From contig NC_047029.1 of the NCBI RefSeq assembly GCF_902652985.1, positions 22,630,001 to 22,694,000 of the forward strand: 64,000 nucleotides of DNA, given 5' to 3'. The position numbers and the translations under genes were made by a program. Source of the stretch: Pecten maximus. Lineage: Eukaryota. Positions 23,707 through 64,000 of this stretch are shown one piece after another (position 1 is the first letter of the stretch; every line of letters starts with the position of its first letter). The notes under the pieces are model-generated. The model ran no database searches. It was given only the letters and a program-made list of their open reading frames with translations, and was not told the DNA's origin.

Positions 23707-23771
23707 TATAGAATGTTATGTCTTGTAGATACCAAGTAGGTTATTTCTACCTTATGACTTCCAAGCATAAA

Positions 23772-25768: not shown

Positions 25769-26198
25769 AACAAGACAATTTGTGTCAAATCTTTTTATTA
25801 AGATTATTGCATAGAAGTGTTATACTTGGCTAAATAAAACAACAAAAAGCAGTTGAGACTGTTCTTCATAACTTTAACATAACGGTATAATGCCCACGAT
25901 TCATTAATGACAGGAAACAGTAACAACACTCGACAGAAACAAAGATAAAAGTGACAGCATCAGCGATTACAATTATGCATAAACAAACAAACAAACAATT
26001 GTATTTTCAGTTTCATCAAACGAAAGGAGGTAGGTAAAAATTTTGTTCCTTTTTAAAACTACACGTGTGAAATGAAACTGATATGGCTAATAACCCTTTA
26101 CGTCACAACCTTGGTCACGCTTTCGATATATTTCTATACAAGAGCTTTCCTGTAACATTACATACACATATTCATGTCCTGCCCTAAATGGATCGTAA

Positions 26199-27700: not shown

Positions 27701-30700
27701 CTGAAAAATAAACAAGGGAATTCTCAAGATTGTTAACAGATGGACCTTGGACATACGGCAATATGAATAGCCTACCATCACTAGATGGTGGGCTAAAAAT
27801 GTAGATCAATTGGTGAAAATTTTGCATTAAAACAAGGGGTTATGAATTCCTATTATTCATTGCATTCTGTGAACTTCAATGTGAGTTCTCACATAAATTC
27901 TCCCATACAACTAGGCCAATTTGAATTTTTGAAGAAAGAGTAATCTACTCACAGGTAACTGAATACCTATCAGGACAACTATTGGGTGTGAAAATAGAGG
28001 GCGCTACTTACAAAGAACTTGTTGAGGAACCTCTGTGATCGAGGTACACATTTTGAACTTTGAACCAGTAATGACACTAGCTGGACACACATTGGGTACG
28101 GCAGCTGGATGCTGTGGACAGCTTGGTCAGTTTTCCAGGATGAAAATGTATGGTCAGGGCTTGGTGGGCAACTGTCAAAAACAAAGTTACAAATTTAGGT
28201 ACAAAAATTACTTATCATTGCGACACTAACTAATTTTTTTTTATTGGAGATTATTTACACAGAAGATCTTATTGATATCTGGACTCAGCATATTGAGAGA
28301 TCAGATGCTCTATATGGCAGACATATTTAACCTTGGTAATACTAGCAGAAGCATATTGCTTTGGCTTGAGAGAATGGTCTTTCCAGGCAGGGTTTTGAGT
28401 GTAACTTTGGTAAATACTAGCCGCAATATAAATGGCCAGGCTACAGTGAACTTCTCTTTAGCTTGACTGGATGAGCATATGACCAGTAAGCCAGAAGTCC
28501 CAGTTACGATCCCTACCAGAGGCAGTAAAGTAAATATAATTTATCATGACCTCTGTTACAAATAGGAAACTATACTGAAGGCACCAGATCAAATACACTT
28601 TTACAAGTTGTTCACATAAACAAGAGATCCCAGAGGGATCTTGGCGCCCACCATTGAATGATCTTCATAGGTTCCATGTCAGATTGATCTTTTCTCTACT
28701 TTTCCCTTCATTTTACTAATCTGTGCAAATTGAGACATCCCTCCAGTACTTTTCAAACAAGGGAATCCTAGCTATATAAGAAATTTGAGATTTAACGATA
28801 ATGGCTGTTTGTTTGCCAGGTTGTTTTCAGGACAGACTGGTCCAAAAATGCAATACAAGGGACCAAGGGGAACCTCCATATGAAATTTGAGAAAGATCCC
28901 TTCAGTACTTTCTCAGAAATAGCGATAACAAACTTCAATCGTCAAAATCCAAGATGGCTGCCTGTCGGCCATGTTATTTTCCGATTGGTCTCAAAATGCA
29001 ATATGCATAACTAGGCACCAAGGGAAACTTACATATGAAATTCGAGAAAGATCCCCTAAATACTTTCTCAGAAATAGTGATAACAAACTTCAATTGTCAA
29101 AATCCAAGATGGCAGCCTGTCGGCCATGTTGTTTTCGGATTGGTCTCAAAACGCAATATGCATAACTAGGCACCATAGTCATATGAAATTTGAGAAAGAT
29201 CCCTTAAATACTTTCTCAGAAATAGTGATAAAAAACTTCAACTGTCAAAATCCAAGATGGCTGCCTGTCGGCCATGTTGTTTTCAGATTGGTCTCAAAAC
29301 GCAATATGCATAACTAGGCACCAAGGGAAACCTACATATGAAATTTCAGAAAGATCCATTCAGTACATTCTCAGAAATAGTGATAACAAACTTCAATTGT
29401 CAAAATCCAAGATGGCTGCCTGTCGGCCATGTTGTTTTCCGATTGGTCTCAAATCGCAATATGCATAACTAGGCACCAAGGGGAACCTACATATGAAATT
29501 TGAGAAAGATCCCTTAAGTACTTTCTCAGAAATAGCGATAACAAACTTCAATTGTCAAAATCCAAGATGGCTGCCTGTCGGCCATGTTGTTTTCGGATTG
29601 GTCTCAAAACGCAATATGCATAACTAGGCACCAAGGGGAACCTTCATATGAAATTTGAGAAAGATCCCTTCAGCACTTTCTCAGAAATAGCGATAACAAA
29701 CTTCAATTGTCAAAATCCAAGATGGCTGCCTGTCGGCCATGTTGTTTTCCGATTGGTCTCAAATTGCAATATGCATAACTAAGCACCAAGGGGAACCTAC
29801 ATATGAAATTTGAGAAAGATCCATTCAGTACTTTGAGAAATAGAGATAACAAACTTCAATTGTCAAAATCCAAGATGGCGGTCTGTCGGCCATATTGTTT
29901 TCCAATTGATCTCAAAATGCAATAAGCATAACTAGGCACCAAGGGGAACCTCCATATGAAATTTGAGAAAGATCCCTTCAGTACTTTCTCAGAAATAGCG
30001 ATAACAAACTTCAATTGTCAAAATCCAAGATGGCTGCCTGTCGGCCATGTTATTTTCCGATTGGTCTCAAAATGCAATATGCATAACTAGGCACCAAGGG
30101 GAACCTTCATATGAAATTTGAGAAAGATCCCTTAAATACTTTCTCAGAAATAGTGATAACAAACTTCAAATGTCAAAATCCAAGATGGCTGCCTGTCGGC
30201 CATGTTGTTTTCAGATTGGTCTCAAAATGCAATATGCATAACTAGGCACCAAGGGAAACCTACATATGAAATTTCAGAAAGATCCATTCAGTACATTCTC
30301 AGAAATAGTGATAACAAACTTCAATTGTCAAAATCCAAGATGGCTGCCTGTCGGCCATGTTGTTTTCCGATTGGTCTCAAATCGCAATATGCATAACTAG
30401 GCACCAAAGGGAACCTACATATGAAATTTGAGAAAGATCCCTTAAGTACTTTCTCAGAAATAGCGATAACAAACTTCAATTGTCAAAATCCAAGATGGCT
30501 GCCTGTCGGCCATGTTGTTTTCGGATTGGTCTCAAAACGCAATATGCATAACTAGGCACCAAGGGGAACCTTCATAAGAAATTTGAGAAAGATCCCTTCA
30601 GCACTTTCTCAGAAATAGCGATAACAAACTTCAATTGTCAAAATCCAAGATGGCTGCCTGTCGGCCATGTTGTTTTGGGATTGGTCTCAAAACGCAATAT

Positions 30701-33700
30701 GCATAACTAGGCACCAAGGGGAACCTTCATATGAAATTTGAGAAAGATCCCTTCAGTACTTTCTCAGAAATAGTGATAACAAACTTCAATTGTCAAAATC
30801 CAAGATGGCTGCCTGTCGGCCATGTTGTTTTCCGATTGGTCTCAAAACTCAATATGCATAACTAGGCACCAAGGGGAACCTTCATATGAAATTTGAGAAA
30901 GATCCCTTCAGTACTTTCTCAGAAATAGTGATAACAAACTTCAATTGTCAAAATCCAAGATGGCTGCCTGTCGGCCATGTTGTTTTCCGATTGGTCTCAA
31001 AACTCAATATGCATAACTAGGCACCAAGGGGAACCTTCATATGAAATTTGAGAAAGATCCCTTCAGTACTTTCTCAGAAATAGCGATAACAAACTTCAAT
31101 TGTCAAAATCCAAGATGGCTGCCTGTCGGCCATGTTGTTTTCCGATTGGTCTCAAAACGCAATATGCATAACTAGGCACCAAGGGGAACCTTCATATGAA
31201 ATTTGGGAAAGATCCCTTCAGTACTTTCTCAGAAATAGCGATAACAAACTTAAATTGTCAAAATCCAAGATGGCTGCCTGTCGGCCATGTTGTTTTCCGA
31301 TTGGTCTCAAAACGCAATATGCATAACTAGGCACCAAGGGGAACCTACATATGAAATTTGAGAAAGATCCCTTCTGTACTTTCTGAGAAATAGCGATAAC
31401 AAGAATTGTTTACGGACGGAGGGACGGACGGACGGAGGGACGGAGGGACGGACGGACGGAGGGACGGACGGACGACGGACCACGGACGCAGGGCGATTTG
31501 AATAGCCCACCATCTGATGATGGTGGGCTAAAAAAATGAATCCACCCTTACCCTCCAATATTGTACCAGGGGTCGTCATTAACGCTTGTCCGATTGTCCG
31601 GTACCAGACGAAATTGATGTCGGACAAGTGAAATCATTAAAGTACTTGTCCGACGGGACAAGTAACAAATCTGTCATTGTGTTTTATTTATGTTATATTC
31701 TGAAGTCAAAACTGATTCAATACTCACTGTAAAATGAGTAAAAACTCCTTTAAATTGTGTTAACCATCGAACGGAAGTGAGTTGATCATGCTTATTAAAG
31801 CTTCATTCGGAACTACATAGAAATGATGGTAGACTTCCGAGGGCTCTCGAAAACATGTAATCGGTATCACTAGTATGTTTGAAACGCATGCGAATGCTGT
31901 ACATGTGAGAGCATTGATACTACGACAGATACCGTCTGCTGGAATCGTAATAAAAATGAATCAGTTTTGATATAATTAAGGAGGCTACAGATCAAGCAGA
32001 CTGCCGTGCCCTAGAAAACGGTGACATGTTTTAATGTTTTCACAGTAGTAAGTTTGTTTATATAGTTTAGTCGAACAGTTCTCCATGAAAGTTAATTATT
32101 TTAGAGTACTTCATTCATCTGCTTTACAGTACCCTACAAGGGTATTGACCTTACCCTCCAATATTGTACCCTACAAGGGTATTGACCTTACCCTCCAATA
32201 TTGCACTCTACAAGGGTATTGACCTTACCCTCCAATATTGTACTCTATAAGGGTATTGACCATACCCTCCAATATGTACCCTACAAGGGTATTGACCTTA
32301 CCCTCCAATATTGTACTCTATAAGGGTATTGACCTTACCCTCCAATATTGTACTCTATAAGGGTATTGACCTTACCCTCCAATATTGCACTCTACAAGGG
32401 TATTGACCTTACCCTCCAATATTGTACTCTATAAGGGTATTGACCTTACCCTCCAATATTGCACTCTACAAGGGTATTTGACCTTACCCTCCAATATTGT
32501 ACTCTATAAGGGTATTGTCCTTACCCTCCAATATTGTACTCTATAAGGGTTTTGACCTTACCCTCCAATATTGTACTCTATAAGGGTATTGACCTTACCC
32601 TCCAATATTGTACCCTATAAGGGTATTGACCTTACCCTCCAATATTGTACTCTATAAGGGTACTGACCTTACCCTCCAATATTGTAATCTATAAGGGTAT
32701 TGACCTTACCCTCCAATATTGTACTCTATAAGGGTATTGACCTTACCCTCTAATATTGTACTCTATAAGGGTATTGACCTTACCCTCCAATATTGCACTC
32801 TATGAGGGTATTGACCTTACCCTCCAATATTGTACTCTATAAGGGTATTGACCTTACCCACTAATATTGTACTCTATAAGGGTATTGACTTTACCCACTA
32901 ATATTGTACTCTATAAGGGTATTGACTTTACCCACTAATATTGTAATCTACAAAGGTTATGACTTTACCCTCAAATATTGTACTATACAAGGGAATTGAC
33001 CTTACCCTCCCGGCTGAATCTGACACTTGTATAACATTTTCAGCACTTTTGTCGGTCGGAGCTGAATACGAGACTCGTCTAATGAACAGCGGTCTATGTA
33101 TACCATCAGACATGGGTCGATTAGCCAAACCTGTAATAAAGAAGTTTTTATTTACGTCAATGACACAATTACCTATATCAATATGTATTCACAGGTGTAA
33201 AATGATCATAATTATTATGAGAAGAATATTGCATCATTTTAACACACTATTAACCTTTGTGAAGCTTTACACGATGCCTCAGAGAACACAGTTTTTCATT
33301 CAGTATTTAGTTTTTCGGTAAGCTCTTCTAATATAAACATACATAGAAAACATTTATAATTTGATGAAATAGAATATCCTTATTAATGCCAGAAATGCAT
33401 TACATACATGTATAGCTATTGAACCTTTGTCAAATTATATCTTTTGTTTGTTTTATAAATGACTGCTCAATGATTAAATATACATTGTACACTATCAGAT
33501 GCATACAAAAACATATTCTCTTTAATCAAATTAGACCCTGGTTTCCTCAGCATTCCTTACCTAATGAAGTTTCTATAGAGGTGTCAAAAAGAAAAATGAT
33601 TAGATTTCAGGAAAAATCTTAGTTAAGAAACTTTCCATATGTTCTGTAATGCTTTCCTCAAGGAAGTTTTAAGTTAAGGTATTTCAATACTCATGAAACT

Positions 33701-47490: not shown

Positions 47491-47584
47491 ATGAAGTTTG
47501 CTGCTGTGGCTTTCCTGGCCACCCTGCCATACATCTTTGCTGTGTCACCAAACCCACAAGTGCCAGCAACTCCAGGGGCCCTGA
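47491..47584 (+). CDS. Integrin beta signal-peptide exon
   Basis: Acceptor tttacag|47482; ATG at 47491; donor A|gtgagt. Confidence 0.82.
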
Positions 47585-50500
47585 GTGAGTATAAACCGTT
47601 ACTGTCACATAACTAAGTATATACCATATAGTGTAACGGAACTACCCTCAACTCCAGGAGCCTTGAGTGAGTATAAACCGTTACTGTTATATAAGTATAT
47701 ATCATAATGTTTGATGCATGAGTAAGTATAGTTTAACTGTTTCACCGGTACCCTACGTATACCCACAAGTATACCTTAAGCTTACTGTCTCCCAGCCAAG
47801 AATTCCCCACAACTCCAGAGACCCTGATGAGTATGTTTAGTGTCACCCTAGCTACCCACAAGTAACAACTACTCCTTGAACCCTGAGTAAGTAAACTGTC
47901 TCCCATCTGAGAAGTCCCCACAAATCCAAATCCCACAGTACCAGTAATATTATATAACCCACAAGTTCCTATAAATACGAGTCCCTGAACAAATATGTTA
48001 TCTATCTACATAAAAAATCTCATGATATTAATTATAAGACTTTCACAATATAAAGTCTTCACATGTACCTGTGTAAAAGAGCTAGTATAGCAGAGGAAAC
48101 TCTAGCTACTAGAACATGTAGTTGATTGTACATTTGATGTGTTTAAATTTTTGCTGTCCTTCAGAGACTTCCTTCCTTATAGGTGAGATCAGCAAAAGCA
48201 ATGACTATTATATGTAATCTTTCAATATATGATTGTATGAATATATAATCAAATTTAGCACATGTGTTATAGGAAGATATTTTTTTTATTGACACTCATT
48301 ATGTTGTATGTGGAACATAAACCCACAATCAACATGCATATGGTACCCCTAATAAATATAACCAAGGGATACGTATAAATATGTCATAAACCCACAATCC
48401 ATATGGTACCCCTAACCAAGGGATACATATATATATAATACATCGGGTATCTATAGCTGTTTTACCCACAGTGCCATGCATGGTGATCACGACCTCTGCA
48501 TAGGTTTTGATGTCGTATAGTATACATACTATGACATGATCATATGAGCCCAGCGACTTCTCTGTATACTGATGACCTGTATATATTTTATAGATATATG
48601 TAAAACTACAGGCCATAATTATCAGCAGTGTTTTTGTTTGGCCTGTTTTACCACCGAATAATGATTGTTTCTCCTAGGCCAAAAATGTTGTATTTTCCCA
48701 AAATTTCAATGAAGTTTCCCAATTATCAAAGTTGAAAAAAATTGTTTTTAAATGATAACATCGCGAGTTCCGAAGCCATAAAGTATTTTCCAAACCTAAC
48801 TAATATGAACGTTATCACTTCAAACATGCAACATCATCCTGTAGACCTAGAGGCGTGCGATCTTTGTTGTTTTAGATCTTGATCATTAAAACGATTTGTA
48901 ATAGATGTCAGTGATTTCAAGTGCTCAAATGATGCAGACATCGTAAAACCGAATACTACACAAATGACAGACTGAAAAAAATCATGAAGGTCTTGTTAGA
49001 ATTAGTGATACATTATTTAGGATACTGATAGTTATTATCCAAATCATATATTGATATACATGTATATAAGTATTCTACTCAAAAATATGTGTACATACAG
49101 CCGCCCTGTGCGGGGCTTGCTACATTATCAACTGTAGACTCATGACTAGGAGGGATTTCTTATACCCTGTCAGAGTGCAGTGCATGCAGGGTATGAATAC
49201 TCATTCTTACCGGGATTTACCACCTGAATATATAGGGAGCTTTCGTCGACTGATTAAGAGGAACTTGTTGATCTTTTCAAAGGATTAAAACAACGAATTC
49301 AGAACTTTACTAGCAACAAGTGATATCTCACCATGCTGGCATAATATATGGGCACATGATGATTTTAAACCACTCATAATGTGTTCTTTTTGTAGCAAGT
49401 GATGTTTAGTTTAATAATGCTGAAAACATGATGAACTATATATTAATAAATTTATTTGACAAAATCAGTGCTGTTTTTTTTGGCAATTTGGTATTTTCCC
49501 AAATTTCTCAAAATGTCGATGAATTTTCCCAACTCAAAAGCCACGTGAGGCTGAAAAATAATGGGAACAAAAACACTGATCAGTTTACAATGTCATGTCC
49601 ATGATCTTTATATAATATATATATATACATGTGCCTAAACTAAACTGAGTGATAATAATTGCCTACTGTAATATTATTATATCTTGTTAAATAACACTAA
49701 CAGATATATGTTACATTTCATATAGATGTAATTGATCAGCATGCACATGTATTTTATACAACATATCTACAATGTATTTACAAATGTAGATATCCATAAT
49801 TGGCTAGAAAAGATGATTTCTTGTGAGACTCGCCAATATGAAATATGCCAATCAAATTTTAGGTTATACAAAGTTTGTATTACAAATATGCTAGTAAAGT
49901 GGTGATGTCACTTCAAATTCAGATTAATTTAATTTTCATTGGAAAAAAAATTGTGTACTGCTATAATTTATATCATGAAATGTTTTTTGTTTATACTCAT
50001 CATCATGATCATGCTTCGTTTTTATGTGGTTGATATTAATAGTTGTTGCTAGGGATATCTATAAATATTTGTTCCACAAAATATCTTAATTACCATCAAA
50101 TATTTGTAACAATTTTCAACATTTTACAACATTCAAATTATGTATCTCTTGGCATTATAGACTGTTGCATACTTATTTCCTGGAGTTATGGTCCTTTGTT
50201 GTGAAAATTCCACCATTAATATAATGACACCTGACTTGGGTTATACTAAATAAATCTAGATGAAAACAGACTACTGATCAGAATTTTGAAGCCTAGCGTT
50301 CTGGGTCAGTATACTAGATTCAGATATACTTATAGCATAAAGCTTACACCTACCTGGGTGTACATGTACATGTTGTGAGAGTGCAGCAGAAGGTAACTGA
50401 TTATACATAGTCTGGTTTAGACAGAAATCACTTACCACACATGGTGTGACATTATTTAACAATTTGTTTTGATGTATACAGACAAAGGCACCCTGACTGT

Positions 50501-53500
50501 AGATAAAGCCAACCCATGTATCGGGGCAGAGACCTGCGGCATGTGTATGGAAAAAGGCAAAGACTGTGCATTCTGTACGGCAACGGTAAGTCATGTGTCA
50601 ATTTCATAATAGATTCTTCATAAATGTGAATAATGAATTGACAATCCCGTAGTACAGAGGAGAAATCAAAGGTTTCCTAACCGGTTAAAGTGCATAGAGG
50701 AGAAATTATAGATATCCTAATTAAGTACACATACTCCAGTGAAGATTGGGTATAGCTACCCAGATTCAGTGTTAAACTGTTATCTAGTAGATATGTTTGT
50801 ATAAAACACTTTCATTGTATTATTATAAATTAGCCCCCTACCGCTGAAACTGGGGGGTGGGGAGCTTTAAGTTTCCTCTATGTCCGTCTTATATGTACGT
50901 AACACTGCAGTTCATCAGCGCTCTAGAAGCTTCATTCCTTGAAGGATTTTGATCGAATTTCACAGAATGATAAAGGACCATACCATCTCGTACAAGTTTC
51001 AGCCTGAGGGTTTTTGGGTTAAGGTTGATGTTATTGCCTACAATCAACTCAGTTCCAGACTCTGACTGACTCCAGTGGTCATCAGGGGAACTGTTTTTTG
51101 GTGGGAACTGGTAGGGGACATGTATTACTTTAGCGATACCCAGTAGATATATAGGCTTGTTTTATTATGTTTTAATATGTTTTTATATAACAGTTTTACT
51201 GTTAGTATACAATATGTTTGTATTTTACAGTTTTATGACAAAGAGAATCTACCTCGCTGTGACCTGAAGTCTAATCACATCAAGAGAAACTGTCAGGGGG
51301 AGGATTTGTACGGTCCAGACAGCGACCTCACACCAATCAGGGTAAACTTTCTCCTACTGATTACTGATTCATGTAAAACAATATACTTGATGTGGCAGAT
51401 TTTAATCAAGGTTGTGGTTATTGAATATAATTACCATCCAGACAATGTTTTACAGTTTGGGATGACCCAAGTGTCTTGGGGATTGCATATAGGTCATTAG
51501 CACTTTTAAAACATTCAAGATGATAATTCACAAAATATTAATTCGATTGTGAATATGTGTATTGATATGTTTATAATTTTGATTTTGGATATCTATAATA
51601 GATTGTGCTGTACATTATATTCGTAAAAATTTCGCCGATTTGTTCCAGGATGATGAGGTAAAAAATGGAGGTGAAAACATCGACATTGAGCCTGCTATCC
51701 AGATCCAACCTCAGGAGTTGACCCTTAAAATTAGACCGAGTAAGTTTTGATAAATGTGCCTGAGAAACAAGATATTACTTTTGTTCGGCCTAAGTTTGAT
51801 AAAATAAACCTGAATTATTGGAGGTTGTACGTAGATAATTTGGTTTGTCTGAAGATTATGAATATTATGAAAATAAATCAATGCATATATTGCAGATTAT
51901 ATAAGAAATGAAAATTACTATAACTAGTTTTTATACAGTATTTGTACATTAACTGCACTTCATGATCGACCTACATTCTGTTACATCCGATTTGTTCGTT
52001 ATTCAGAGATGTTCGTTTTTTAGAAGGTTCGGTTTTCAGAAGTTGCACTGTATACCAAATTACCATTGGTTTTGATATGTCACTAAACTTAAATGAAAAC
52101 AAAAACACATTTTATGTTAAATAAATCTTATGTGAAATAATTAAATAATAAATTCTTAAACTCTGACATAGTCATTAAATAGCCATCAAATGTCAAACAC
52201 AATTCATAATGTAATCATATATCTGGAGATATGGTCAGATATAACTTAGATTAACATATATTGCATCTCTTGGTTTACAGAAAAATTGAAAAATCCTTTC
52301 CCAGCTAAATATTTAAATCACATACTTGAGAAAAAAAATCTTGTGTTGAAATTCTTCTTATTATCACCTGAAAAATAACTAAATATGGTGTTTTTAATCT
52401 ATTATCAATGTGTAATATTTCTGTATTCTCTCCATAAATCATGTTTAAATATCCTGCCTTAAACAATGAATGGTCACAACAATTCTAACGACCTTTGTCT
52501 GTAACATGTTTGAAAGACTGCGCAATTGCCTCACTAGTGGTATCAAACATAATATCCAATGTCTAAATATATTCGTTGTGTACTATATTTTATGTATAAT
52601 TTCCTTGTTCACTTATGAATACTTGTGTTTACAGATGATCCCCAGAAGTTCAAGTTGACGTTCCGCTTGGCTGAGGATTACCCCGTGGACCTGTATTACC
52701 TTATGGACTTGTCACACTCGATGAAGGATGACAAAGAGAGACTTGCCTTACTTGGAACTGAAATCGGTAACTATTACAACAGAAGTCTCCTGGTATTTAT
52801 CATGAGCTGCTGTTTTTGTCACTTGCGTATTTTAAATTCCTGTTTCATGACAGCTACTTAGGAAAAAGTCATAGATTGAATGGAGGTAATGGTAGATTTT
52901 AGAACTTCAGTTCCATTTTTTATTTGCATAAGAAACAAAAGATAATTTATTGCTTGCACAAAACTATAAATTATAGAAGTAACTAGTGAGCACCATGTAT
53001 TACACTACATATGAGATGAAGAGGTCTAATAAATTGTTCATGGATTCTAATTAACTTTTATCTACTGGTACATTGGGTAACTTCTCAAAACAGCAAATTT
53101 AAAGTATATATTGAGTCATAAAATTACCCTGAGAATGAAAATTAAGATTATTTTGATAACAGTGAGATGCAGAAGATAATACCTGTCTGATGGATGTGTG
53201 TTACTCTATGTATATTTATGTCATCATATGACCAATTTATATCTTTTAAATCTGCTTGTTGTATTTTGCAGCAAAGAAGATGAAGGGCATTACTAAGAAC
53301 TTTCAGTTGGGTTTTGGATCGTTTGTGGACAAGGTGGTGATGCCATATGTAAGCACAGCCCCGTCCAAGTAAGTGTTATCACAATGAATCTCCTACTTGC
53401 TCTTGTAGATCATTCCATATTGGTGGTTTGTTTATTTTTATTTTTTTTCTCCAGATGCTCTTGTGTTATAGATTCTTCAGATTTTATTACAGAGATTACT

Positions 53501-56500
53501 ATAGGTAACTTGTTTGTAAGAAAACCAGTTGTATATTAGAAAACAAGAGATGACTTGTCTTTAAAGACCACCCAGGGAAGAATGAACCTGTTAGTAAAGA
53601 CCACTCAAGGTAGATAGTTAACTTGGCTATAAAGACCACTTAAGGCAGAGTTAACCTGTCTATAAAGACCACCCAGGGAAGAATGAACCTGTTAGTAAAG
53701 ACCACTCAAGGCAGAGAGTTATCCTGTCTATATAAACCACTCAAGGTAGATAGTTAACTTGTCTATAAAAACCTCAAGTCAGAGTTAACCTGTCTTTAAA
53801 GACCTCAAGACAGGGAGTTAGCCTGTTTATATAAACCACTTAAGGCAGAGTTAACTTGTCTATAAAGACCATTTAAGGTGGAGTTAACCTGTCGATAAAG
53901 AACTCAAATCAAGGAGTTAACCTTTTTATGTAAACCACTCAAGATAGAGATTTAACCTGTCTACAAAGACCTCTCAAGGCTAAAAGCTAAGCCAACCTAT
54001 CAGTAAAGACCAGCCAGGGCAAAGGCTGTCTATAAAGACCGCTCAAGACAGATCACGAACCTGTCAATGACAGCTAGTTGTTGTTCAGATATTGCTAGAA
54101 TAGCTGTTTTAAAGAGGTTGTCTATTACAAAGGTGTTTATCAGTGATATAACAAATCACAAATATAAAGCACACTTATTTTTTTTTCTTCTCGAGGCAAC
54201 ATTTTTGCTTGATATTAGCCTGAAGATTGTGTATATGATCGATGTATTCCACTAGACACCGCTGTTAACCTGCACTTTTGTCATACATGCATGAACCTAT
54301 CTATGATGATTTAGTATACTCTGCCATACACAAATGTGTCCTCTTGTGATAATTATATTTCATTATCTACATCTAAACTAGTAATTCTATTGTAATTTAG
54401 ATATAATGTTTTGACTGGTAAAATCTGTAAATATTGTTTTCTTTTAGAATCTTTAAATATTTTTTTCTTCATTTGAATTTTGATTAAGATTTTTAAAAAA
54501 ACAACAAATAAGTGTAAATAGATATAAACATGTTAATAACATAGTTCAGCAATTATGTTGTTAAACTGTACTGAGACAGTAAAACCTGTGGATATAATAT
54601 GATACATGTAGTATTGTAGTTATAAACTTCGATGTTAAAATGGTATTTTTGCATTGTGTTCCATTCCTTTTAAGTTTGCATCTTGAGACTTTTCCTATTG
54701 TTAGACTTTACCCTGTCATTGTTGATTTTTGTTTATTTTCAGATTTTGTTTACGCTTTTTTAAGACTATATATTTCACCTGAGAAATCACAAGCACGTTT
54801 TCAGCTCTCAGTGAAAATTACATAAAAATTCATAATTTTAAATCAGTTGTTTTTTCTGGAATTGGATTGTGCTGCTACCTGGCTTTGTTTTCAGAGAGTT
54901 AAGAGTAACCTTGAGTGTAAAACCTGTATCATGATGAAAATAGTTGCACATGTACTGATATTGAAATCAATTTAGACAGCATTACATGTAATTTTCCTTC
55001 ATCATTTCACAGTTCAGTACCACAAATCTGGTTGTTGTAATTTTCCTTCATCATTTCACAGTTCAGTACCACAAATCTGGTTGTTCTTTTAAACATCTTG
55101 TATTTTGGTTATTTGTTTCGCGACAAAACTACATAAGAAAGTTAAGCATTATTTTGAAAAATAAGTGGCAGGATTAATAGGTAATATTATTTTGAAATGA
55201 ACATTTCAATGCAAGTCTCGTCTAACCTATTCCATAGATTTGACAAGAAAACAAAACATTTTGGCTAATATGTTCAGGAATTTAAATAAGAATTTGACAG
55301 TTATGATGAAGCTTTATATATTAGTGAGCAGGTGGAGTGATGGAGACCAAAATTTTCAGTAAAGACACATATGTAACACCAATGCATTGTAGGTTAAAGT
55401 AATCATCAGTTATTTACGTAACTCTGATAGAAAACAAAGCCAAGGACTTTAAAGACTTGAATGATCCTTTGTTTGTGTCTGTCTTGTGCTTTATGCTTGT
55501 TGTGTAATTTTATCATAAAACAGGGAACCTGGTTCGATAAAACGAACGTAAGTGATCATGCTGTTTTGCACTGCTTGCACTTGGGTGCGTAAAGCCTGTG
55601 GCTGTCATATACTCATGTCACACCAACCTCAAAGCACAAATATTTCAGTCTCATCTACACATCAGTTCTAAGGCTATTTCCAGGCTATTTCAGGAATCAG
55701 TCCTATTAAGAAAAATAAACTGCATAATGAAGTAACTAAGAAGACTTTTCAGGGGTTTTTTCTGTCTTTTCTCTTGAAAAAAAAATGTCTTGATTTTCTG
55801 AAGTGTTCCATCTTAATGCCTATATTATATATAGACCTTTTTCTTAAATTAGGTCTAGATGTTTTTCTCTTTTCAAATTTGGATGACAATCTTCTGAAGT
55901 GTTCCATCTTAATGCCTATATTTCTTAAATTAGGTTTAGATGTTTTTCTCTTGATCTAATTTGGATTAAGATGTCTGAATCTTATCAGGTATTAGATCAA
56001 ACTTTGAAATATGTCACCAGGCAAAATATAGTCCGACTTAAATTAGATCAGTTATATTAGTTATCCTGAAACTAGACATTTATATACAAGTATCCTGAAA
56101 CTAGACATTTATATACAAGAAACCCAGATAGAAGCTAAGTTTATACAGTACATGTAACATTTCCGGGGAAAAAATCTTCTTATTATAAGTAAAGAAAAAC
56201 AGTTGAAACTTTTCTTATTACAATATATATATTTTGTATATTAGTAAATTTTAAGGTTTATCAAACAACAGGTTGTTATAAAAAAAAAAATTGATGGCAT
56301 GGTATGTTGTTCTGGCCTTGAAGACATTTAAGTATATTATTTCTGTAATTATCAATGCTGTAGTAAAACTCTCCAAGTTCTCTCATGTGTTCCTTTTATA
56401 ATACGATTGGTTGTTTTTCGGGACAAGAAGTGCCAGCTATATTAAGGTCTAATTTTCTTACAGTTTACATATGTAAATGAGATGTGATATGAAAGAGGTT

Positions 56501-59500
56501 TATTATCATGAAATAGGGCCTACTCAACAGTTATTATTATGAGGGTAATTTAGGGTATTATAATGACTTCAGTAGTACACACATTCTCAGTTGTTCTTTG
56601 ATGTGAGAGTTTGAGAGAAACTATATAAGTTTAGGAATACCATACAATTTTTGGATTCCATACAAGTTTTCGGGTACATCATAAAAGTGTTTGGGGTACC
56701 ATACAAAATTTGGGGTACACCATACAAGTTTTGGGGTACATGTATATCATATGAGTTTTGGGTACCATACAAGTTTGAGATACACAATAAAAAGTTTTTG
56801 GGGGTACCATGCATGTTTGAGATACAACATACATGTTTTGGAGCACATCATACAAATTTTGGGGGTATATTGTACAAGTTTTGGGGTATCACATGGGTTT
56901 TAGAATATACATACTGTATCAGATTTTTAGGAGGTGCTACAATGAGGAATTTGGTATGATTTGACAGCTAAGTTATGCATGGCTATGTATTCTACAGCTT
57001 ATGGCAGTTCCTGTTTACCTCTATGTACTTGTGTATGAATGCCTCATATCAAATCATGTACTGTACTGTTAATTAACGTAAATGTGTTATGTTGGAGTAA
57101 AATATGCACACAGGTTTTGTATAAAATGGTAAAATGTCGTTTTGTTAGTGCTTTATGATAAGTTATAAGGTTCAGGCTGCAGATGCTGGGAACTGGTAGG
57201 GATATGTGTGGTTGAAGTAAATTTGAACCCTGCACCACTGAATGATGTGCACCACTGGCCGAATACTACATACGTGTGATTGGGAGCACTGGTGTAATTT
57301 GTATTAATTTACCCTTCATACTTCACTGTCACAAAAAAACATATAACATGGACTAAGTCTTCCTTGTCCATATATTGTACGCCCATTGTATGTCAATTTG
57401 TAGACAATTATATCAGTTTGTGAAAATGAACTGATGACAATTTCAGCCAATTTTCTCCCTCCTTCTTAACAATGTCTTAATCACAGATCATATAATATAT
57501 TCTATTGTATAATATCACTTCTCATTATAAAGCTAAACAAATATCTATACTCGACATAATGTTATATCAACTTCCTGTTTGCTAAATAATATTACATGTA
57601 AAATTCCTGGTTTGGTAAATAACATTAATATTGTATAAGTGATCTGTTACCTATTATAGTATACATGTTATTAAAAATCTCTTGCTGCAAAATTTTATAT
57701 AAAATATCCTTATTACCTTATTCCAATGGAACCTTGTGTAAAAAGCTATAATGACATGTCACAATCATGTTACATAACAAACAAATCTTTATATATTTCC
57801 TAACCTTATATTAAATTGATATTTAATACTGATGTATCGATCTCTTTAACAGAGTTTTATAAAATATTTTCTTTGATACATATAATGCAACCTGGGGCAA
57901 ATGATTCCAGATAATGTAAAAACAGTTATAAATCTCTGTTATTTAAAGCTGATAAACCCAACTTATTGAGAAACATAAAAATGTTGATTATACTAACTTG
58001 TCTGCTACTATGTACAGAGCATGTAGATTCAGTTTTATCCGTTTTGCCTGATTACATAAAGCAGTGCATTAATTACTGCATGTGAATATGTGCATGGCAG
58101 TAATATTACAGCTCTCTCTTGCTGATTTAGAATAATAGGCTGGTATAGAAAGATAGCTATAGGACATTGCATGAAAAAGTTTTATTTAGATAAACAGCTG
58201 GTTAATAGCATGATGTGTAGTCTTTAATTGGATTAATGAAAATTGGCATTATGATAAGTCTAGGTATATACCATCATGTATATACGTACAATGATGGAAA
58301 TAGTATAGAATAGCTTATGGATAGCTGAACTTTAGCTGTAGGCCAGTTTAGTCCTTCTGCCCCACCCATTATACTTATACTCTATATCTTATCTACATCC
58401 TTCGACATATTCTTATGGTAATATATATCCCCACATTAACGGTCTACGCTCCCTCTAACAGTATCCTCTTTTATTAGTCAGCCTTGTCTTGTAAATCTCT
58501 TGACATGAATACTGTGAATCTGTTGGGTCTCACTTAACTTTGGGAATTTTTAGCAAAAATACTGAAACTCTTGATACAAAAATGTTTGGACTCTTGATCT
58601 TTATCCAAACATTGGGAGTCCTAACTGAAAAAATATCACTGTGGACCTTGCATAAATATTGGGACTATATTTTCACTTTTGAAAATATTGGGACTCTCTT
58701 AATCCTTATAAATATTGGGACTCTCTAAATCTTTATAAATATTGGGACTCTCTTAATCCTAATAAATGTTGGGACTCTCTAAATCCTTATAAATATTGGG
58801 ACTCTCTTTATCCTTATAAATATTGGGACTCTCTTAATCCTTATAAATATTGGGACTCTCTTAATCCTCATAAATATTGGGACTCTCTTAATCCTAATAA
58901 ATGTTGGGACTCTCTAAATCCTTATAAATATTGGGACTCTCTTTATCCTTATAAATATTGGGACTTTCTTAATCCTTATAAATATTGGGACTCTCTTAAT
59001 CCTTATAAATATTGGGACTCTCTTAATCCTGATAAATATTGGTACTCTCTTAATCCTAATAAATGTTGGGACTCTCTAAATCCTTATAAATGTTGGGACT
59101 CTCTTAATCCTAATAAATGTTGGGACTCTCTTAATCCTTATAAATATTGGGACTCTCTAAATCCTTATAAATATTGGGACTCTCTTAATTATTTTAAATA
59201 AGGGACTTGATCCTTGTCCTGTTGATATTTGTCTAAATATTGGGACTCTTGATTCCTGTCTAAATATTGGGACTCTGTTGATTCCTGTCTAAATATTGGG
59301 ACTCTGTTTATCCTTACATACTTACTGAGACTGTTGATCCTCACATAAATATCGAGTCAGTTGATCCTCACATAAATATCGGGACTCTCATGATCCTCTG
59401 TTGAAAACTAGGACTGTAGAATATCTGAGGACGTTAAAAATTGAGCATTTCAACATTTCTCTTATTCTGCATCTTCCGCAAAAATTGAAAATATGGGCTG

Positions 59501-62095
59501 CATAATGTCCTGAATGTATAACTTTTGAATTGCATGCATTTAGTTGGTTTACTATAGATGAAGCATCACAGAGAAAAATTAAGGATAAAAAGATATATAA
59601 ATTGATGAAGAAATAACACCAATTTTGGCATCTGAATGACTAGTGATATTGAACGTGTTGGACTCCATGGTGAGTGGCTCAGTGTACCAAGTGTTGATTT
59701 GTACTGTTGTGTCTGTTTTCAGATTAAGCAGCCCTTGTCCTGGATGTGACCCCCCATATGGCTTCAAGAATCAGCTCAAACTTGATAAAGACACCACCAG
59801 ATTTGCAGTAGGTTTTTCTTACCCAGTAACATACACTTTACTTCTTTTCAAAAAACTATTCCTTTAGTGTTCATGGAGAGATTTTGACCGAAATTGACAT
59901 GCACATTTGTACAATGAAATTAAAAATGGAGTGCAATATATATTAGCCATGAATCTCAGGATAGAGATTTATGACTTAAAAATACATTGTGAATGGTAAT
60001 TTAAGATGAGAGTTTTTCTGTATACTGAGAATTCAGTGTCCCATTGTTAAAGCGAAGAGAGGCATAACATGTTGGAAATACACACCATGTATTTCTAAAG
60101 GTAAAGTTATAACAATGAAGACAAAGGGATGTCAATTTAATTTTAGCAAAATCATCCCTTGATGAACAAGGTTCAGTATTGTTCAATTGAAGGTTAAAGT
60201 TTTGAGTAGAGAAGAATAAATGGGACAAAAATATAAGTTTTCTTCTCTAGGTTTCATAGCAAATATTAATTGATAAAATTCAATGTAAGTGATTGATTGT
60301 CTTATGACAAGTTTTACGGTATTTGGTAAATATCTAGAATCCATAATCATTTCTTGTCTTATTTTCCAAAGGCTTTTAAAAAAAAAAAAAAATAACATTT
60401 GATTTTGCATCCTATTTTACCCCATTCTGTGTGTCCATCAGTCATTCTGTCCATCCGCCACTGTGATAAATATTTTATGTTTTTAAGCAAGATTTTTTTA
60501 GGTCATTTATAGGGGCTGAAATAATTTTGAGAAAATGGGCATTCATGTTGTACCAGAGACCTATATACTAGTATATAGGTCTCTGTGTTGTACCAACAAG
60601 TTTCTAGTTTGGTATCTGGACGAGGACCACAACATATATACAACAAGCCTTGTATCCAGCCTCTGTAACAATTGTAAACTTGGCTATTCCTTCCTGTTTA
60701 CAGACTGAGGTGCGAGCTGCCAAGGTGTCTGGTAACCTGGATGCTCCTGAAGGAGGTTTTGATGCTATTATGCAGAGTCTTGTCTGTGAAGTAAGTAGTG
60801 ATGTAGTCAGAGTGATGTAATGTCGCGAATAGTCGTTGTTTACTTAGTTTATCATGATTATATCATTGGAAAATGTTAAATGACAAATTATGAAAGCGTA
60901 ATTAGTAAGCAATTTTGAACTAACAAAAAACAAACAAAAAACGATTGTTTTTGAAAATAAATTTTCAGTACATTGAATTGATGAACATCTAATGGCCATA
61001 TGTAAGTCTCCTGTAGGTTGAAAACATTTTTACATTAGGAGATTTAAAGGTAGCAATGTCTGGTTTGAAATGTTTATTTTTAAATGGAGGTTGTGACCCC
61101 TATTGGGGCAATGGTGTAGGACCTACAGGTAATAGGAGTCATGGAGGTAAGTCATTATGATCCTATTCCTGAGATACTAGTGACAGATCTGGGTCTTTCT
61201 GGGACAGACAGACGAATGGACGTATATTCATCTGTGGGTGGGGGACGTCCTGTGACAACAGTATTAAAAAGGTTTAAGTTTACTGACATCCATAAGTCAC
61301 AAATAAACTTTGCGGAAAAGTTTTGAAATTCAGTAAAATATCCTTAAAATATTGTTTTTTGTATGTCTTTTCCTGTTAACTTCTTATAGTAATGTTATAT
61401 AGTCTATCAATAGTCAATACAGTTATTGATGAGCTGCAAATCCTCAAAAACAACATTTTTGCAATATTATGTCTTTTTAGAAATTTTGTTAAATTGTAAG
61501 CATACCAGATATTTTAGGAGTATTAAGACTCTGGTCAGAAAAGATTTTGGGCATATTAATGTACTTGTATATGTACTTGTGTTATATATTTAAAATTTTA
61601 TCAAATCCATATTTCTGAATGAGAATTGAAGCCTTTAGATGATTGGGAATGCTGATCAGTTAGTAAGGAGATACACAAGTCTATAGTATATATGCCATTA
61701 TTGAGAATGGATTATAATTGCCTGGCCCCATCAGTAACACAACACTTCTCTGCTTTTACAATATTATGTTACATTACTTAAATACTTTTTGATTTTCATT
61801 TCCCATCAAACCATATACATCTTTTAAATTTTCAAACATTTCATAGATGTATCTACAAAAAAATCTCCAAAATTAATAATTCAATTTAATTTGTTAAGAT
61901 GAAGTTAATATCCATTTGACAATTAAGAATATTCCTAAAGTTAAGAAGGTATGTGTTTCTTTGGCCTGATTTATGAAGCATGAACACATATAATTTATTA
62001 TGATAATTTAGAACGAGATTGGATGGAGAGCAGCCTCACGGCGTATGTTACTATTCTCCACCGACGCAGACTTTCACTATGCAGGAGATGGAAAG
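47491..62095 (+). CDS. Integrin beta subunit (beta1/betaPS-like), 3'-partial, join(47491..47584,50482..50585,51231..51341,51649..51739,52635..52766,53272..53368,59723..59807,60704..60790,62012..62095...)
   Basis: Signal peptide [17 protein letters not shown]; PSI domain Cys pattern; [12 protein letters not shown]; [23 protein letters not shown]; [14 protein letters not shown]; [16 protein letters not shown]; [17 protein letters not shown]; IGWR...[16 protein letters not shown]. Phases are consistent. The gene continues beyond the window. Confidence 0.95.
48626..49578. mobile_element. Non-autonomous TIR transposon, 5-bp TSD
   Basis: TIR cagtgtttttgtt / aacaaaaacactg; TSD atcag; subterminal ttttcccaa repeats. 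Confidence 0.82.
50482..50585 (+). CDS. Integrin beta PSI exon
   Basis: [27 protein letters not shown]|gtaagt. Confidence 0.9.
51231..51341 (+). CDS. Integrin beta exon
   Basis: [37 protein letters not shown]|gtaaac. Confidence 0.9.
51649..51739 (+). CDS. Integrin beta exon
   Basis: [30 protein letters not shown]|gtaagt. Confidence 0.9.
52635..52766 (+). CDS. Integrin beta exon (MIDAS DxSxS)
   Basis: [30 protein letters not shown]|gtaact. Confidence 0.95.
53272..53368 (+). CDS. Integrin beta exon
   Basis: [33 protein letters not shown]|gtaagt. Confidence 0.95.
53550..54065. repeat. Degenerate 30-35-bp minisatellite
   Basis: gagttaacctgtctataaagaccactcaaggca variants. Confidence 0.85.
55524..55547 (+). 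CDS. Candidate 24-nt alternative microexon of integrin beta (inserts EPGSIKRT)
   Basis: aaacag|GGAACCTGGTTCGATAAAACGAAC|gtaagt; phase 2-2, no stop, consensus donor. Confidence 0.5.
56625..56890. repeat. Degenerate 21-24-bp minisatellite
   Basis: catacaagttttggggtacac variants. Confidence 0.75.
58683..59400. repeat. 27-bp minisatellite
   Basis: ataaatattgggactctcttaatcctt. Confidence 0.93.
59723..59807 (+). CDS. Integrin beta exon (specificity-determining loop)
   Basis: [28 protein letters not shown]|gtaggt. Confidence 0.93.
60554..60585. mobile_element. 32-bp perfect palindrome with 8-bp TSD (micro-MITE)
   Basis: cagagacctatatact|agtatataggtctctg flanked by tgttgtac on both sides. Confidence 0.8.
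60704..60790 (+). CDS. Integrin beta exon
   Basis: [29 protein letters not shown]|gtaagt. Confidence 0.95.
62012..62095 (+). CDS. Integrin beta exon
   Basis: [28 protein letters not shown]|gtttgt. Confidence 0.95.
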
Positions 62096-62537
62096 GTTTG
62101 TCTACCTGAAATGCCACAAGGGGGCGCTGACCTCCGTCAACATCTGTGGTGGACTAACATCTCTAACTCCGCAACTCGTCACCAAGTGTACCTCCTGCCA
62201 AATCTGCAAAACATGAGGTGTAATTGATATATTCAATATCACATCATAGGTCGTTGTAAGGGAAGGAATGAAGTAATTATTCTTTCTTATGTAGAGAAAG
62301 AAACATCTTAATTTGATGCAGAAAAAGACACATCTTATTTCAATGTTGAAAAAGAAACATCTTATTTTGATGTAGAAACAGTCTCATGATTGCAGGATTT
62401 GGCAGCTGGTTGGTTTTCTTTTACAATGGAAATTTGCTTTCCAGCTTCAAATCTCTCTCTGAATGAAATATTTTTATATATTGTTTGCTTCTTCATTGAC
62501 ACAAAAAAGGTTGTCCTACATTATCATTGTTGACGAT

Positions 62538-62745
62538 AGACTAATAACTATAGCTGGTCTGATCGACTTAGACTAATAGCTTCGATAGCTGGTCTAATGG
62601 ACTTTGATTAATAGCTTATATATAGTTGGTCTGATCAACTTAGATTAATAGCTTATATATAGTTGGTCTGATCGACTTAGATTAATAGCTTCAATAGATG
62701 GTCCAATGGACTTAGACAAATAGCTTATATATAGCTGGTCTGATC
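62538..62745. repeat. About 35-40-bp degenerate tandem repeat
   Basis: atagctggtctgatcgacttagattaatagctt variants. Confidence 0.8.
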
Positions 62746-63276
62746 TTTTCTTTTTAGAAAGTGTTTAAATGAATTTACAAAATTTGTTTGTGAACTATTC
62801 TCATGTGTTTTATGTGGAAAAACATAAAGGTTGATGATACCTGATCCATGTTAATGTATACTGTAATTACTGATTGGACAACCTATGTTGTGTCTTTCAC
62901 CTAATTGTATCTATCTTCTTAAGTTCACCAGGTTGATCTAAGAATTAATTTTTCGAACCCCAAATTAGAAAAAAAACAAAAACAAAAAAAAACTGAAAAT
63001 ATATTACCATATAATGTCCAAAATTACAAAGTAATAAATTTTGTTTGTAACATTTAAGTATGAAATAGACACACTTTCCAGACCTAATAACCAAAGTTCT
63101 GTTTGTCAGAACCACAATGAAACTGACATGGTCATCTGGATTATTTAACAAAAGTGATACATCAAGGTGAAATTTTTATTTAATCCTCACTTTAAGGCTA
63201 ACCTACCCGGTTATAACATATATTCCTTTGGTAGATTGGTACTATTTGAGCTGATACATTGACCCTGCTCCCTTTA

Positions 63277-63935
63277 GGTCCAGTAGGTAATCCAGTCACC
63301 TTCAGGCCTACTAGATAATCCACTCACCCTTAGACCCACTAGATAATCCAGTCACCTTCAGGCCTACTAGATAATCCAGTCACCTTCAGACTAAGTAGGT
63401 AATCCAATCATCTTCAGATCCAAAATATAATCCAGTCACCTTCAGGTCCAATAGATAATCCAGTCACCTTCAGGTCCAATAGATAATCCAGTCACCTTCA
63501 GGTCCAATAGATAATCCAGTCAACTTCAGGTTCAATAGATAATCCAGTCACCTTCAGGTCCAATAGATAATCCAGTCACCTTCAGGTCCAATTGATAATC
63601 CAGTCATCTTCAGGCCTAGTAGATAATCCAGTCACCTTCAGGTCCAATAGATAATCCAGTCACCTTCAGGTCCAATAGATAATCCATTCAACTTCAGGTT
63701 CAATAGATAATCCAGTCACCTTCAGGTCCAATAGATAATCCAGTCACCTTCAGGTCCAATAGATAATCCAGTCATCTTCAGGCCTAGTAGATAATCCAGT
63801 CACCTTCAGGTCCATTATATAGGTAATCCGGTCACCTTCAGGTCCAATAGATAATCCAGTCACCTTCAGGTCCAATAGATAATCCAGTCATCTTCAGTCA
63901 CCTTCAGGTCCAATAGATAATCCAGTCACCTCCAG
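63277..63935. repeat. 28-bp minisatellite, about 23 copies
   Basis: aggtccaatagataatccagtcaccttc. Confidence 0.95.
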
Positions 63936-64000
63936 ACCAAGTGAATAACAGTTACTTTAAGTTAACCAGACTTTTTTTCAGCCTAATTTTAGCCTAATAC

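What the first reader, a model, noticed from the sequence alone, without database searches (positions are those of the whole stretch)
55524..55547. Candidate 24-nt microexon inserting EPGSIKRT just before the integrin beta specificity-determining loop
Seen: in the 6.3-kb intron between ...STAPSK and LSSPCPGC there is cag|24 nt|gtaagt. It preserves the phase-2 frame, has no stop, and is preceded by a UG/UGC-rich tract. TGCATG elements lie downstream (56976, 58077, 58091, 58168). Established: this loop shapes ligand specificity, it is alternatively spliced in Drosophila betaPS (exons 4A/4B), UGC motifs mark SRRM4/eMIC-regulated microexons, and TGCATG is the RBFOX site. Inference: a tissue-specific switch of ligand binding that also adds a dibasic KR.
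Basis: partly seen in the sequence, partly recalled or inferred. Interest (0 to 1): 0.7.

Follow-up and report, generated by a model that had tools for sequence, protein, structure and literature searches.

The report
Bivalve integrin ligand-loop microexon switch
A 24-base optional exon, spliced in or left out depending on the sample, adds eight amino acids to the ligand-selecting loop of a scallop cell-adhesion receptor (integrin beta); matching inserts occur in mussels, an oyster and an ark clam, so it is likely an old switch that would tune what the receptor binds.

Summary
Real and alternatively spliced. Contigs join the 24-nt exon to both neighbours in 3 of 8 runs laid and skip it in 6 of 8. 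The gene is a scallop integrin beta-PS orthologue. RefSeq models already hold the +8 isoform, and 6-8 aa inserts sit at the same junction in scallops, Mytilus, Magallana and Tegillarca, all in one pteriomorph clade. The insert lies inside the specificity-determining loop (SDL), in a stem that is 16 aa in 300 of 327 proteins, and is predicted to break a short helix. KR is not conserved (KP in other scallops). In mussels, oyster and ark clam, inclusion creates an N-K-S/T glycosylation sequon across the junction; scallops lack it. Insects, Daphnia and clams vary the next exon by mutually exclusive copies, so this looks like an independent route to SDL variants. Tissue, regulator and effect on ligands are untested; upstream UGCs are not distinctive, downstream TGCATG is enriched. 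Ten paper searches found no description; this scan had not noted it elsewhere.

The parts
55524..55547 (+). 24-nt cassette microexon; completes Lys210 and adds EPGSIKRT in the SDL stem of the betaI domain
   Evidence: Joints 53368>55524 and 55547>59723 in X2, X3, X4; RefSeq isoforms X1, X2
55455..55523 (+). 3' splice region of the microexon: 67-nt AG-free zone, pyrimidine tract displaced upstream (-60..-26), TGC at -37 and -30, A-rich pyrimidine-poor last 25 nt
   Evidence: pyrimidine share 0.74 at -60..-26 (highest of 23 acceptors), 0.50 at -25..-4 (joint lowest of 23)
55548..55653 (+). Consensus donor GTAAGT followed by a TGC-rich tract (5 TGC in +7..+106, two YGCY)
   Evidence: 1% of 100-nt windows in the gene reach 5 TGC
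56810..59536 (+). Six TGCATG (RBFOX-type, motif recalled) elements at 56810, 56976, 58077, 58091, 58168, 59531
   Evidence: 6 against a shuffle mean of 1.07, 0 of 300 shuffles reach 6; 2.5% of same-size windows in 103 kb reach 6
53272..53368 (+). Upstream constitutive exon (..[19 protein letters not shown]); first half of the SDL, phase-2 donor
59723..59807 (+). Downstream exon with the SDL disulfide knob ([12 protein letters not shown]..); homologue of the exon that is duplicated as a mutually exclusive pair in insects, Daphnia and venerid clams; single copy here
52635..52766 (+). Exon with the MIDAS motif DLSHS
60704..60790 (+). Constitutive exon ([12 protein letters not shown])
62012..62095 (+). 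First of two mutually exclusive 84-nt exons ([16 protein letters not shown]); its partner lies just beyond the window at G000:C15:22694316-22694399
   Evidence: joint 60790>62012 in X2, X11, X13; partner's start as loose end in X3, X4, X7, X9; RefSeq X1/X4 against X2/X5
47491..64000 (+). 5' part of the integrin beta-PS-like gene (start codon 47491; last coding exon about 16 kb beyond the window)
   Evidence: tblastn of P0001, P0027, P0030 on window plus L001-L004

Best explanation
The 24 nt at 55524-55547 are a cassette microexon of a scallop integrin beta gene, included in some samples and skipped in others, which adds eight residues inside the specificity-determining loop and likely acts as an old, regulated switch that would change what the receptor binds or how tightly. 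Shown: both splice forms; frame; position in the loop; inserts at the same junction in four pteriomorph orders. Predicted: the insert splits a short helix (Pro208-Ser212) that spans the exon junction and lengthens a stem whose length is otherwise fixed, at the rim of the alpha/beta ligand groove. Inferred: the exon is skipped by default because of its poor 3' site and is switched on by proteins that bind the downstream intron, RBFOX the best candidate; it arose once at the base of Pteriomorphia; in mussels, oyster and ark clam it would also add an N-glycan, a feature scallops lost while keeping the peptide.
For: Inclusion joints in 3 of 8 runs (2 of 6 studies), with no skip joint in X3 and X4; skip joint in 6 of 8 runs (5 of 6 studies), two of them in single unbranched contigs of over 3 kb; X2 holds both. 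Plus and minus isoforms in 7 named species of three orders, and a single plus model in Tegillarca. All 7 insert-bearing rows fall in one clade of 14 pteriomorph rows, SH-aLRT 100 in a quick tree. Stem from FVDK to the first SDL cysteine is 16 aa in 300 of 327 proteins fetched; 24 of the 27 exceptions are these inserts. AlphaFold: helix 208-212 in the skip form, no helix and pLDDT under 50 at 202-210 in the inclusion form, rest of the fold alike. SDL swaps change ligand specificity and SDL-bound antibodies block ligands sterically (PMC11463590, PMC3255974; passages). Fly 4A/4B vary the same loop (PMC9218073, passage; Musca isoforms). TGCATG: 10 of the 11 copies in seven introns lie in the two introns that follow the alternative exons.
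Against: No binding, tissue or regulator data. Seven of the 8 runs, and all three with inclusion, are RNA only by the tool's guess, and the joints have a short side of 24 letters (the exon's own length). Contigs drop rare forms, so 'include only' and 'skip only' mean dominant, not exclusive. The insert's sequence and length are poorly kept (EPGSIKPT, SAGTDKPT, TDGSPT, TANDGS), so homology across orders rests on position and clade; I could not see the other species' genomes to confirm that their inserts are separate exons. Within the clade the label is scattered (6 changes; 200 of 500 shuffles as low) because 7 of 14 rows have no insert on record, which may be real loss or thin annotation. Only 7 of 104 alignment rows carry an insert and no alpha subunit was modelled, so low pLDDT is weak evidence. 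The nearest TGCATG is 1263 nt away. Low polymorphism around the exon is not significant at most widths.
Confidence: 0.65

Rival explanations
1. It is a neural microexon of the eMIC (SRRM234) programme; this is compatible with the protein-level reading and differs only in the regulator and tissue.
For: Length 24 nt, frame kept, switch-like use; 67-nt AG-free zone, upstream-shifted pyrimidine tract, weak last 25 nt and two TGC between tract and AG, features named for eMIC targets (10.1101/2021.02.24.432780 and 10.1101/2024.09.17.613571; passages).
Against: TGCs are at -37 and -30, not close to the AG, and 5 of 23 acceptors in the gene have two; the AG-free zone ranks fifth of 23; no CTAAY branch point within 150 nt. 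The SRRM_C family gave no match above cut-off in G000 (inconclusive because of introns). No tissue labels.
Confidence: 0.3
2. The insert changes alpha-subunit pairing, surface delivery or the activation set-point rather than ligand choice.
For: The residues just before the junction (beta3 162-170 equivalents) contact the beta-propeller, and the SDL is credited with roles in pairing and activation (PMC11463590). A fly paper's title gives regulation of activity as the primal function of this loop (seen only in a reference list).
Against: The same passage says the alphaVbeta3 SDL is not involved in dimer formation; the junction (beta3 172|173 equivalent) belongs to the residue group that moves with ligand.
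Confidence: 0.25
3. The exon is a tolerated passenger: a surface-loop insertion with little effect, kept because it is harmless.
For: Sequence and length diverge between orders; no insert on record in 7 of 14 pteriomorph rows; the sequon is missing in scallops.
Against: It is the dominant form in two runs; 7 of 8 residues are the same in three scallop genera; no other lineage among 327 proteins shows a credible length change in this stem; N-K-S/T is kept with an S/T exchange in three orders.
Confidence: 0.12
4. The exon adds a dibasic KR site for proteolytic processing of the beta subunit.
For: K216-R217 is in the sequence and no run shows another letter in the exon.
Against: KP in Mizuhopecten and Argopecten, KP or SP in mussels and Tegillarca, absent in Magallana; IKR is not the R-X-X-R furin consensus (recalled).
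Confidence: 0.03

Closest known systems
Drosophila myospheroid (betaPS) mutually exclusive exons 4A/4B
   Same: Alternative splicing alters the SDL of the beta-PS orthologue. The 29-aa block that differs between Musca isoforms starts at the very junction where the microexon inserts; such pairs also show in Aedes, Anopheles, mayflies and Daphnia.
   Different: There a duplicated 29-aa exon is swapped and length is unchanged; here the SDL exon is single and an unrelated 6-8 aa optional exon is added in front of it.
SDL-exon variant pairs in heteroconch clams (Mercenaria, Ruditapes, Mya RefSeq isoforms)
   Same: Same loop, same exon boundary, in bivalves.
   Different: Exon swap, not insertion. 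Both clam copies share Y-S where both insect copies share Y-G, which favours a separate duplication (inference); the Mya pair differs at only two residues.
eMIC/SRRM3-4-dependent neural microexons
   Same: 3-27 nt class (recalled), frame kept, surface-loop insertion, switch-like use, weak 3' region with long AG-free zone.
   Different: UGCs are far from the AG and not distinctive; neural use and regulator not shown; the richest motif signals are downstream (TGC tract, TGCATG).
Vertebrate integrin beta subunits whose SDL sets ligand specificity (beta1/beta3 swap, beta6/beta8 SDL2)
   Same: Same fold and loop (phmmer E 1e-157 to beta1; Foldseek top hits beta3).
   Different: Vertebrates vary the SDL between paralogous genes; I found no report of a spliced insertion in it.

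Membership tests
Cassette microexon | Very short exon with AG/GT ends, joined to both neighbours in transcripts | tested here: met
   24 nt; both joints in X2, X3, X4
Cassette microexon | Skipped form also exists | tested here: met
   Joint 53368>59723 in 6 of 8 runs
Cassette microexon | Frame kept, no stop | tested here: met
Cassette microexon | Conserved in orthologues | tested here: met
   Protein level only: 8 named species, 4 orders; orthologous introns not seen
eMIC/SRRM234-dependent neural microexon | UGC close to the 3' splice site | tested here: inconclusive
   TGC at -37 and -30; 5 of 23 acceptors have two in -60..-4
eMIC/SRRM234-dependent neural microexon | Long AG exclusion zone and weak 3' region with upstream pyrimidine tract | tested here: met
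   67 nt (fifth of 23); pyrimidines 0.50 near the AG, 0.74 upstream
eMIC/SRRM234-dependent neural microexon | Strong CUAAY branch point | tested here: not met
   Nearest branch-like words are TAAT -19, TGAT -62, CTGAT -100, TAAC -105; the consensus is the fly's
eMIC/SRRM234-dependent neural microexon | Inclusion restricted to neural tissue | not testable with these tools
   Runs are coded and kept as contigs
eMIC/SRRM234-dependent neural microexon | Regulator with eMIC domain in the genome, and dependence on it | tested here: inconclusive
   PF15230 best E 0.70, under cut-off, in an unrelated frame; dependence not testable
RBFOX-enhanced exon | UGCAUG enriched in the downstream intron | tested here: met
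   6 against 1.07; 0 of 300 shuffles; all more than 1.2 kb away
RBFOX-enhanced exon | Motifs conserved in orthologous introns; inclusion falls on knockdown | not testable with these tools
   No other bivalve genome available here
betaPS 4A/4B-type mutually exclusive SDL exons | Two homologous copies of the SDL exon | tested here: not met
   One copy only by blastn, tblastn and motif scan of both flanking introns
betaPS 4A/4B-type mutually exclusive SDL exons | Splicing alters the SDL | tested here: met
Integrin beta subunit (beta-PS/beta1-like) | PSI, hybrid, betaI with DXSXS MIDAS, EGF repeats, tail with NPXY motifs | tested here: met
   DLSHS; Pfam PF00362 and others on P0001; exon map to NPIY/NPTY tail
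Splice-made N-glycosylation site | N-X-S/T formed only on inclusion, in this scallop gene | tested here: not met
   S-K-E at the junction in all three scallops
Splice-made N-glycosylation site | N-X-S/T formed only on inclusion, in mussel, oyster and ark clam orthologues | tested here: met
   NKS in Mytilus and the P0005 cluster, NKT in Tegillarca and Magallana; NKI in skip forms; occupancy not testable; no skip form on record for Tegillarca or P0005

The most novel reading that the evidence does not exclude
Pteriomorph bivalves invented a microexon that switches an N-glycan on and off at the rim of the integrin ligand groove: the last residues of one exon supply Asn-Lys and the microexon supplies Ser/Thr. 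It is a third independent route, beside exon duplications in pancrustaceans and in clams, by which protostomes with few beta genes make several ligand specificities from one gene; scallops kept the peptide switch, lost the glycan, and combine it with a second mutually exclusive pair to make four betaI domains.
Probability: 0.4. Interest if true: 0.72.

Novelty: new variant of a known kind. Interest (0 to 1): 0.52.

Why it matters
How invertebrates with few integrin beta genes tune ligand choice is known mainly from the fly 4A/4B exons. A natural, conserved plus/minus insertion in the same loop gives a clean pair of receptors to test what SDL length, and in mussels and oysters an SDL glycan, does to binding. 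It also shows repeated evolution of splicing at one exon boundary. Bivalve integrin work (haemocyte adhesion and phagocytosis) treats each beta gene as one protein; the oyster family paper's main text has no mention of exons (PMC7390872). The isoforms are already in automatic annotations, so the novelty is in recognising and interpreting them.

Tried and rejected
Sequence pattern as proof: rejected, 69% of shuffled introns give a comparable candidate. My first guess, from memory, that fly 4A/4B is the IGWR..AGDGK exon: wrong, the Musca isoforms differ in the SDL exon (note corrected). KR as a functional site: rejected. An 8-aa difference in Octopus vulgaris (789 against 781): only an N-terminal extension. 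Microexon as a relic of a duplicated SDL exon: no similarity, no second copy. Low polymorphism around the exon: 0 listed substitutions within 150 nt against 2.65 expected, P 0.07; 0.04-0.20 at other widths, tables truncated, upstream intron also poor in variants: not used. SRRM_C search in G000: nothing above cut-off. Search of shorter proteins for further inserts: none among 41. Microexon in the same intron of the tandem paralogue: three weak candidates, no TGCATG, not followed. The careful tree did not finish; the quick tree is cited. Three papers asked for by id were not held. No complex was predicted. The two earlier scan notes returned (archaeal adhesins) do not bear on this.

Full report
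What is in the sequence. The window carries the 5' part of an integrin beta gene on the + strand, start codon at 47491. The exon ending ...STAPS-AA at 53368 and the exon starting A-TTAAGC (LSSPC) at 59723 flank a 6354-nt phase-2 intron. At 55524-55547 lies acag|24 nt|gtaagt; joined in, it reads [22 protein letters not shown] without a stop. As a pattern this is unremarkable: 4 such in-frame candidates exist in the intron and 69% of 200 shuffles give at least one.

Transcripts. Of 24 runs listed I laid 8, from 6 studies, all as assembled contigs. Both inclusion joints appear at the exact coordinates in X3 (depth 13.9, no skip joint), X4 (11.2 and 5.6, no skip joint) and X2 (23.4, beside 54 for the skip joint). 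Only the skip joint appears in X1, X7, X9, X11 and X13. So inclusion is seen in 3 of 8 runs (2 of 6 studies) and skipping in 6 of 8 (5 of 6 studies). Limits: seven runs are RNA by the tool's guess, although GT..AG joints over several introns argue for RNA; contigs drop rare forms; depth is a poor measure of level; tissues are not given. Use of the exon therefore depends on the sample; that it depends on tissue is inferred.

Orthologues. The gene is the beta-PS-like integrin of a pectinid scallop; RefSeq proteins named Pecten maximus match its exons, and isoforms X1/X2 carry EPGSIKRT while X4/X5 lack it. Mizuhopecten and Argopecten have EPGSIKPT (817 against 809 aa), three Mytilus species SAGTDKPT (801 against 793), an unnamed cluster SSGTDSPT (8 of its 9 members; the ninth lacks the region), Magallana gigas TANDGS (806/805 against 800/799) and Tegillarca TDGSPT in its single model. 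No insert is on record in the members listed for Ylistrum, Mytilus californianus, M. coruscus, Ostrea, Saccostrea, Crassostrea virginica, C. angulata or Pinctada, nor in any clam, gastropod, cephalopod, brachiopod or arthropod protein fetched. In a quick tree of 34 proteins all 7 insert-bearing rows lie in one pteriomorph clade of 14 rows (SH-aLRT 100), scattered among rows without a recorded insert (6 changes, 200 of 500 shuffles as low). One origin with losses or missing annotation is the simplest reading, but I could not inspect those genomes. The dibasic KR is peculiar to this species.

Where the insert sits. By alignment to beta1 and the beta3 numbering in PMC11463590 (passages), Cys215 matches beta3 Cys177 and the junction falls between the equivalents of Ala172 and Leu173, inside the SDL (158-190) and five residues before the disulfide knob. 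The distance from FVDK to that cysteine is 16 aa in 300 of 327 proteins fetched (redundant set); 21 have 24 and 3 have 22, all of them these inserts; the other 3 look like faulty models. AlphaFold with a 104-row alignment gives the skip form a helix at 208-212 across the junction (block pLDDT 65 and 81) and the inclusion form no helix and pLDDT 50 and 56, the rest alike. Only 7 rows carry an insert and no alpha subunit was present. The SDL borders the ligand groove, swaps in it change specificity, and antibodies on it block ligands by steric hindrance (PMC11463590, PMC3255974, PMC6889490, PMC9483561; passages). That the insert changes binding is inference from these.

A glycan switch in the relatives. 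Asn two places before the junction occurs in 3 of 136 distinct insert-free stems, all Mytilus or oysters. In every Asn-bearing form with an insert the first added residue is Ser or Thr, giving N-K-S (Mytilus, P0005 cluster) or N-K-T (Tegillarca, Magallana); skip forms read N-K-I. Of 163 distinct SDL strings 7 hold a sequon, 4 of them these. Scallops read S-K-E and have none. This is one evolutionary event seen after the fact, so it is a lead; the S/T exchange with N-K fixed, while the rest of the insert diverges, is what selection on a sequon would leave.

Regulation. Against the other 22 acceptors of the gene, the microexon has the joint lowest pyrimidine share next to the AG (0.50), the highest further up (0.74), a 67-nt AG-free zone (fifth), and TGC at -37 and -30, which 4 other acceptors match in number. 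This fits part of the eMIC code (10.1101/2021.02.24.432780, 10.1101/2024.09.17.613571; passages) but does not single it out, and the regulator's domain was not found above cut-off. The clearer signals are downstream: 5 TGC in the first 100 nt (top 1% of windows) and 6 TGCATG in the intron (shuffle mean 1.07, 0 of 300; antisense 2). Four more follow the second alternative event (P 0.013), and the other five introns tested hold one in all. TGCATG as the RBFOX site, and YGCY and UG-rich words as MBNL and CELF sites, are recalled. I put RBFOX involvement near 0.45 and eMIC near 0.3; they are not exclusive.

Comparison with what is known. A review states that fly betaPS exons 4A and 4B encode 29 residues in a region that sets ligand preference in human integrins (PMC9218073, passage); the primary papers were seen only as titles. 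I did not fetch Drosophila, but Musca myospheroid isoforms differ over 29 columns that start at this same junction and cover the disulfide knob; Aedes, Anopheles, two mayflies and three Daphnia species show the same kind of pair, and so do Mercenaria, Ruditapes and, weakly, Mya. The scallop has one copy of that exon. It works like 4A/4B in target but is not a member of that class. The scallop gene also has a mutually exclusive pair three exons on (62012-62095 and G000:C15:22694316-22694399), both used in the runs; contigs link skipping with either exon, and RefSeq lists all four combinations.

Novelty. The isoforms are in automatic annotations. Ten full-text searches (listings only, except the papers named) gave no paper that describes a bivalve integrin microexon or a spliced insertion in the SDL; the oyster integrin family paper has no 'exon' in its main text (PMC7390872). 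The library lacks most subscription journals, and I saw no supplementary files; exon lists in the supplements of the two microexon preprints were not seen.

Verdict. Observation confirmed; interpretation partly supported. Real alternative exon 0.97; under selection 0.85; changes ligand binding or affinity 0.65. New variant of a known kind, interest 0.52.

Noticed in passing
window 62012-62095 and G000:C15:22694316-22694399: Mutually exclusive 84-nt exon pair (IGWR..AGDGK segment of the betaI domain), both used in RNA runs; isoform pairs at this exon also in Mizuhopecten, Argopecten, Mya, Dreissena, Mercenaria, Ruditapes, Sinanodonta, Patella and Haliotis, not in the Mytilus, oyster or insect members listed. 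Four TGCATG follow the second copy.
   Followed up: partly
G000:C15:22709027-22709045 (L002): The assembly has one base more than the Mizuhopecten reading frame at the start of this exon, so the RefSeq isoforms of this gene stop at 700-708 aa, before the transmembrane segment, although the later exons are intact. Probably an assembly error; not checked in reads.
   Followed up: partly
G000:C15:22724900-22733000 (L004): Tandem, divergent integrin beta paralogue 15 kb downstream, with an altered MIDAS (DPSNT) and the same phase-2 intron in the SDL, but no clear microexon and no TGCATG.
   Followed up: partly
P0223/P0219 (Mercenaria), P0221/P0224 (Ruditapes), P0199/P0200 (Mya): Clam isoforms differ in the SDL exon itself, like fly 4A/4B; probably a separate duplication.
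   Followed up: partly
P0199/P0198, P0101/P0209, P0223/P0217, P0232/P0231, P0091/P0197: Clams and oysters have alternative last exons that change the NPXY-bearing cytoplasmic tail, reminiscent of vertebrate beta1A/beta1D (recalled); only one tail exon was found for the scallop gene.
   Followed up: no
P0015 cluster (unnamed, groups with mussels): A fast-evolving mussel-like paralogue has no insert and lacks the Asn of the sequon.
   Followed up: no
window 14017-21203, + strand: Exons that read like a bifunctional coenzyme A synthase (HIGH-like HAGH motif, then a GGIASGKS P-loop); name recalled, not searched.
   Followed up: no
window 15409-16580, 23712-25830, 28802-31327, 58683-59198: Long tandem repeat arrays with open frames, the last inside the intron downstream of the microexon; a short element at 60551-60586 is shared by many contigs.
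   Followed up: no
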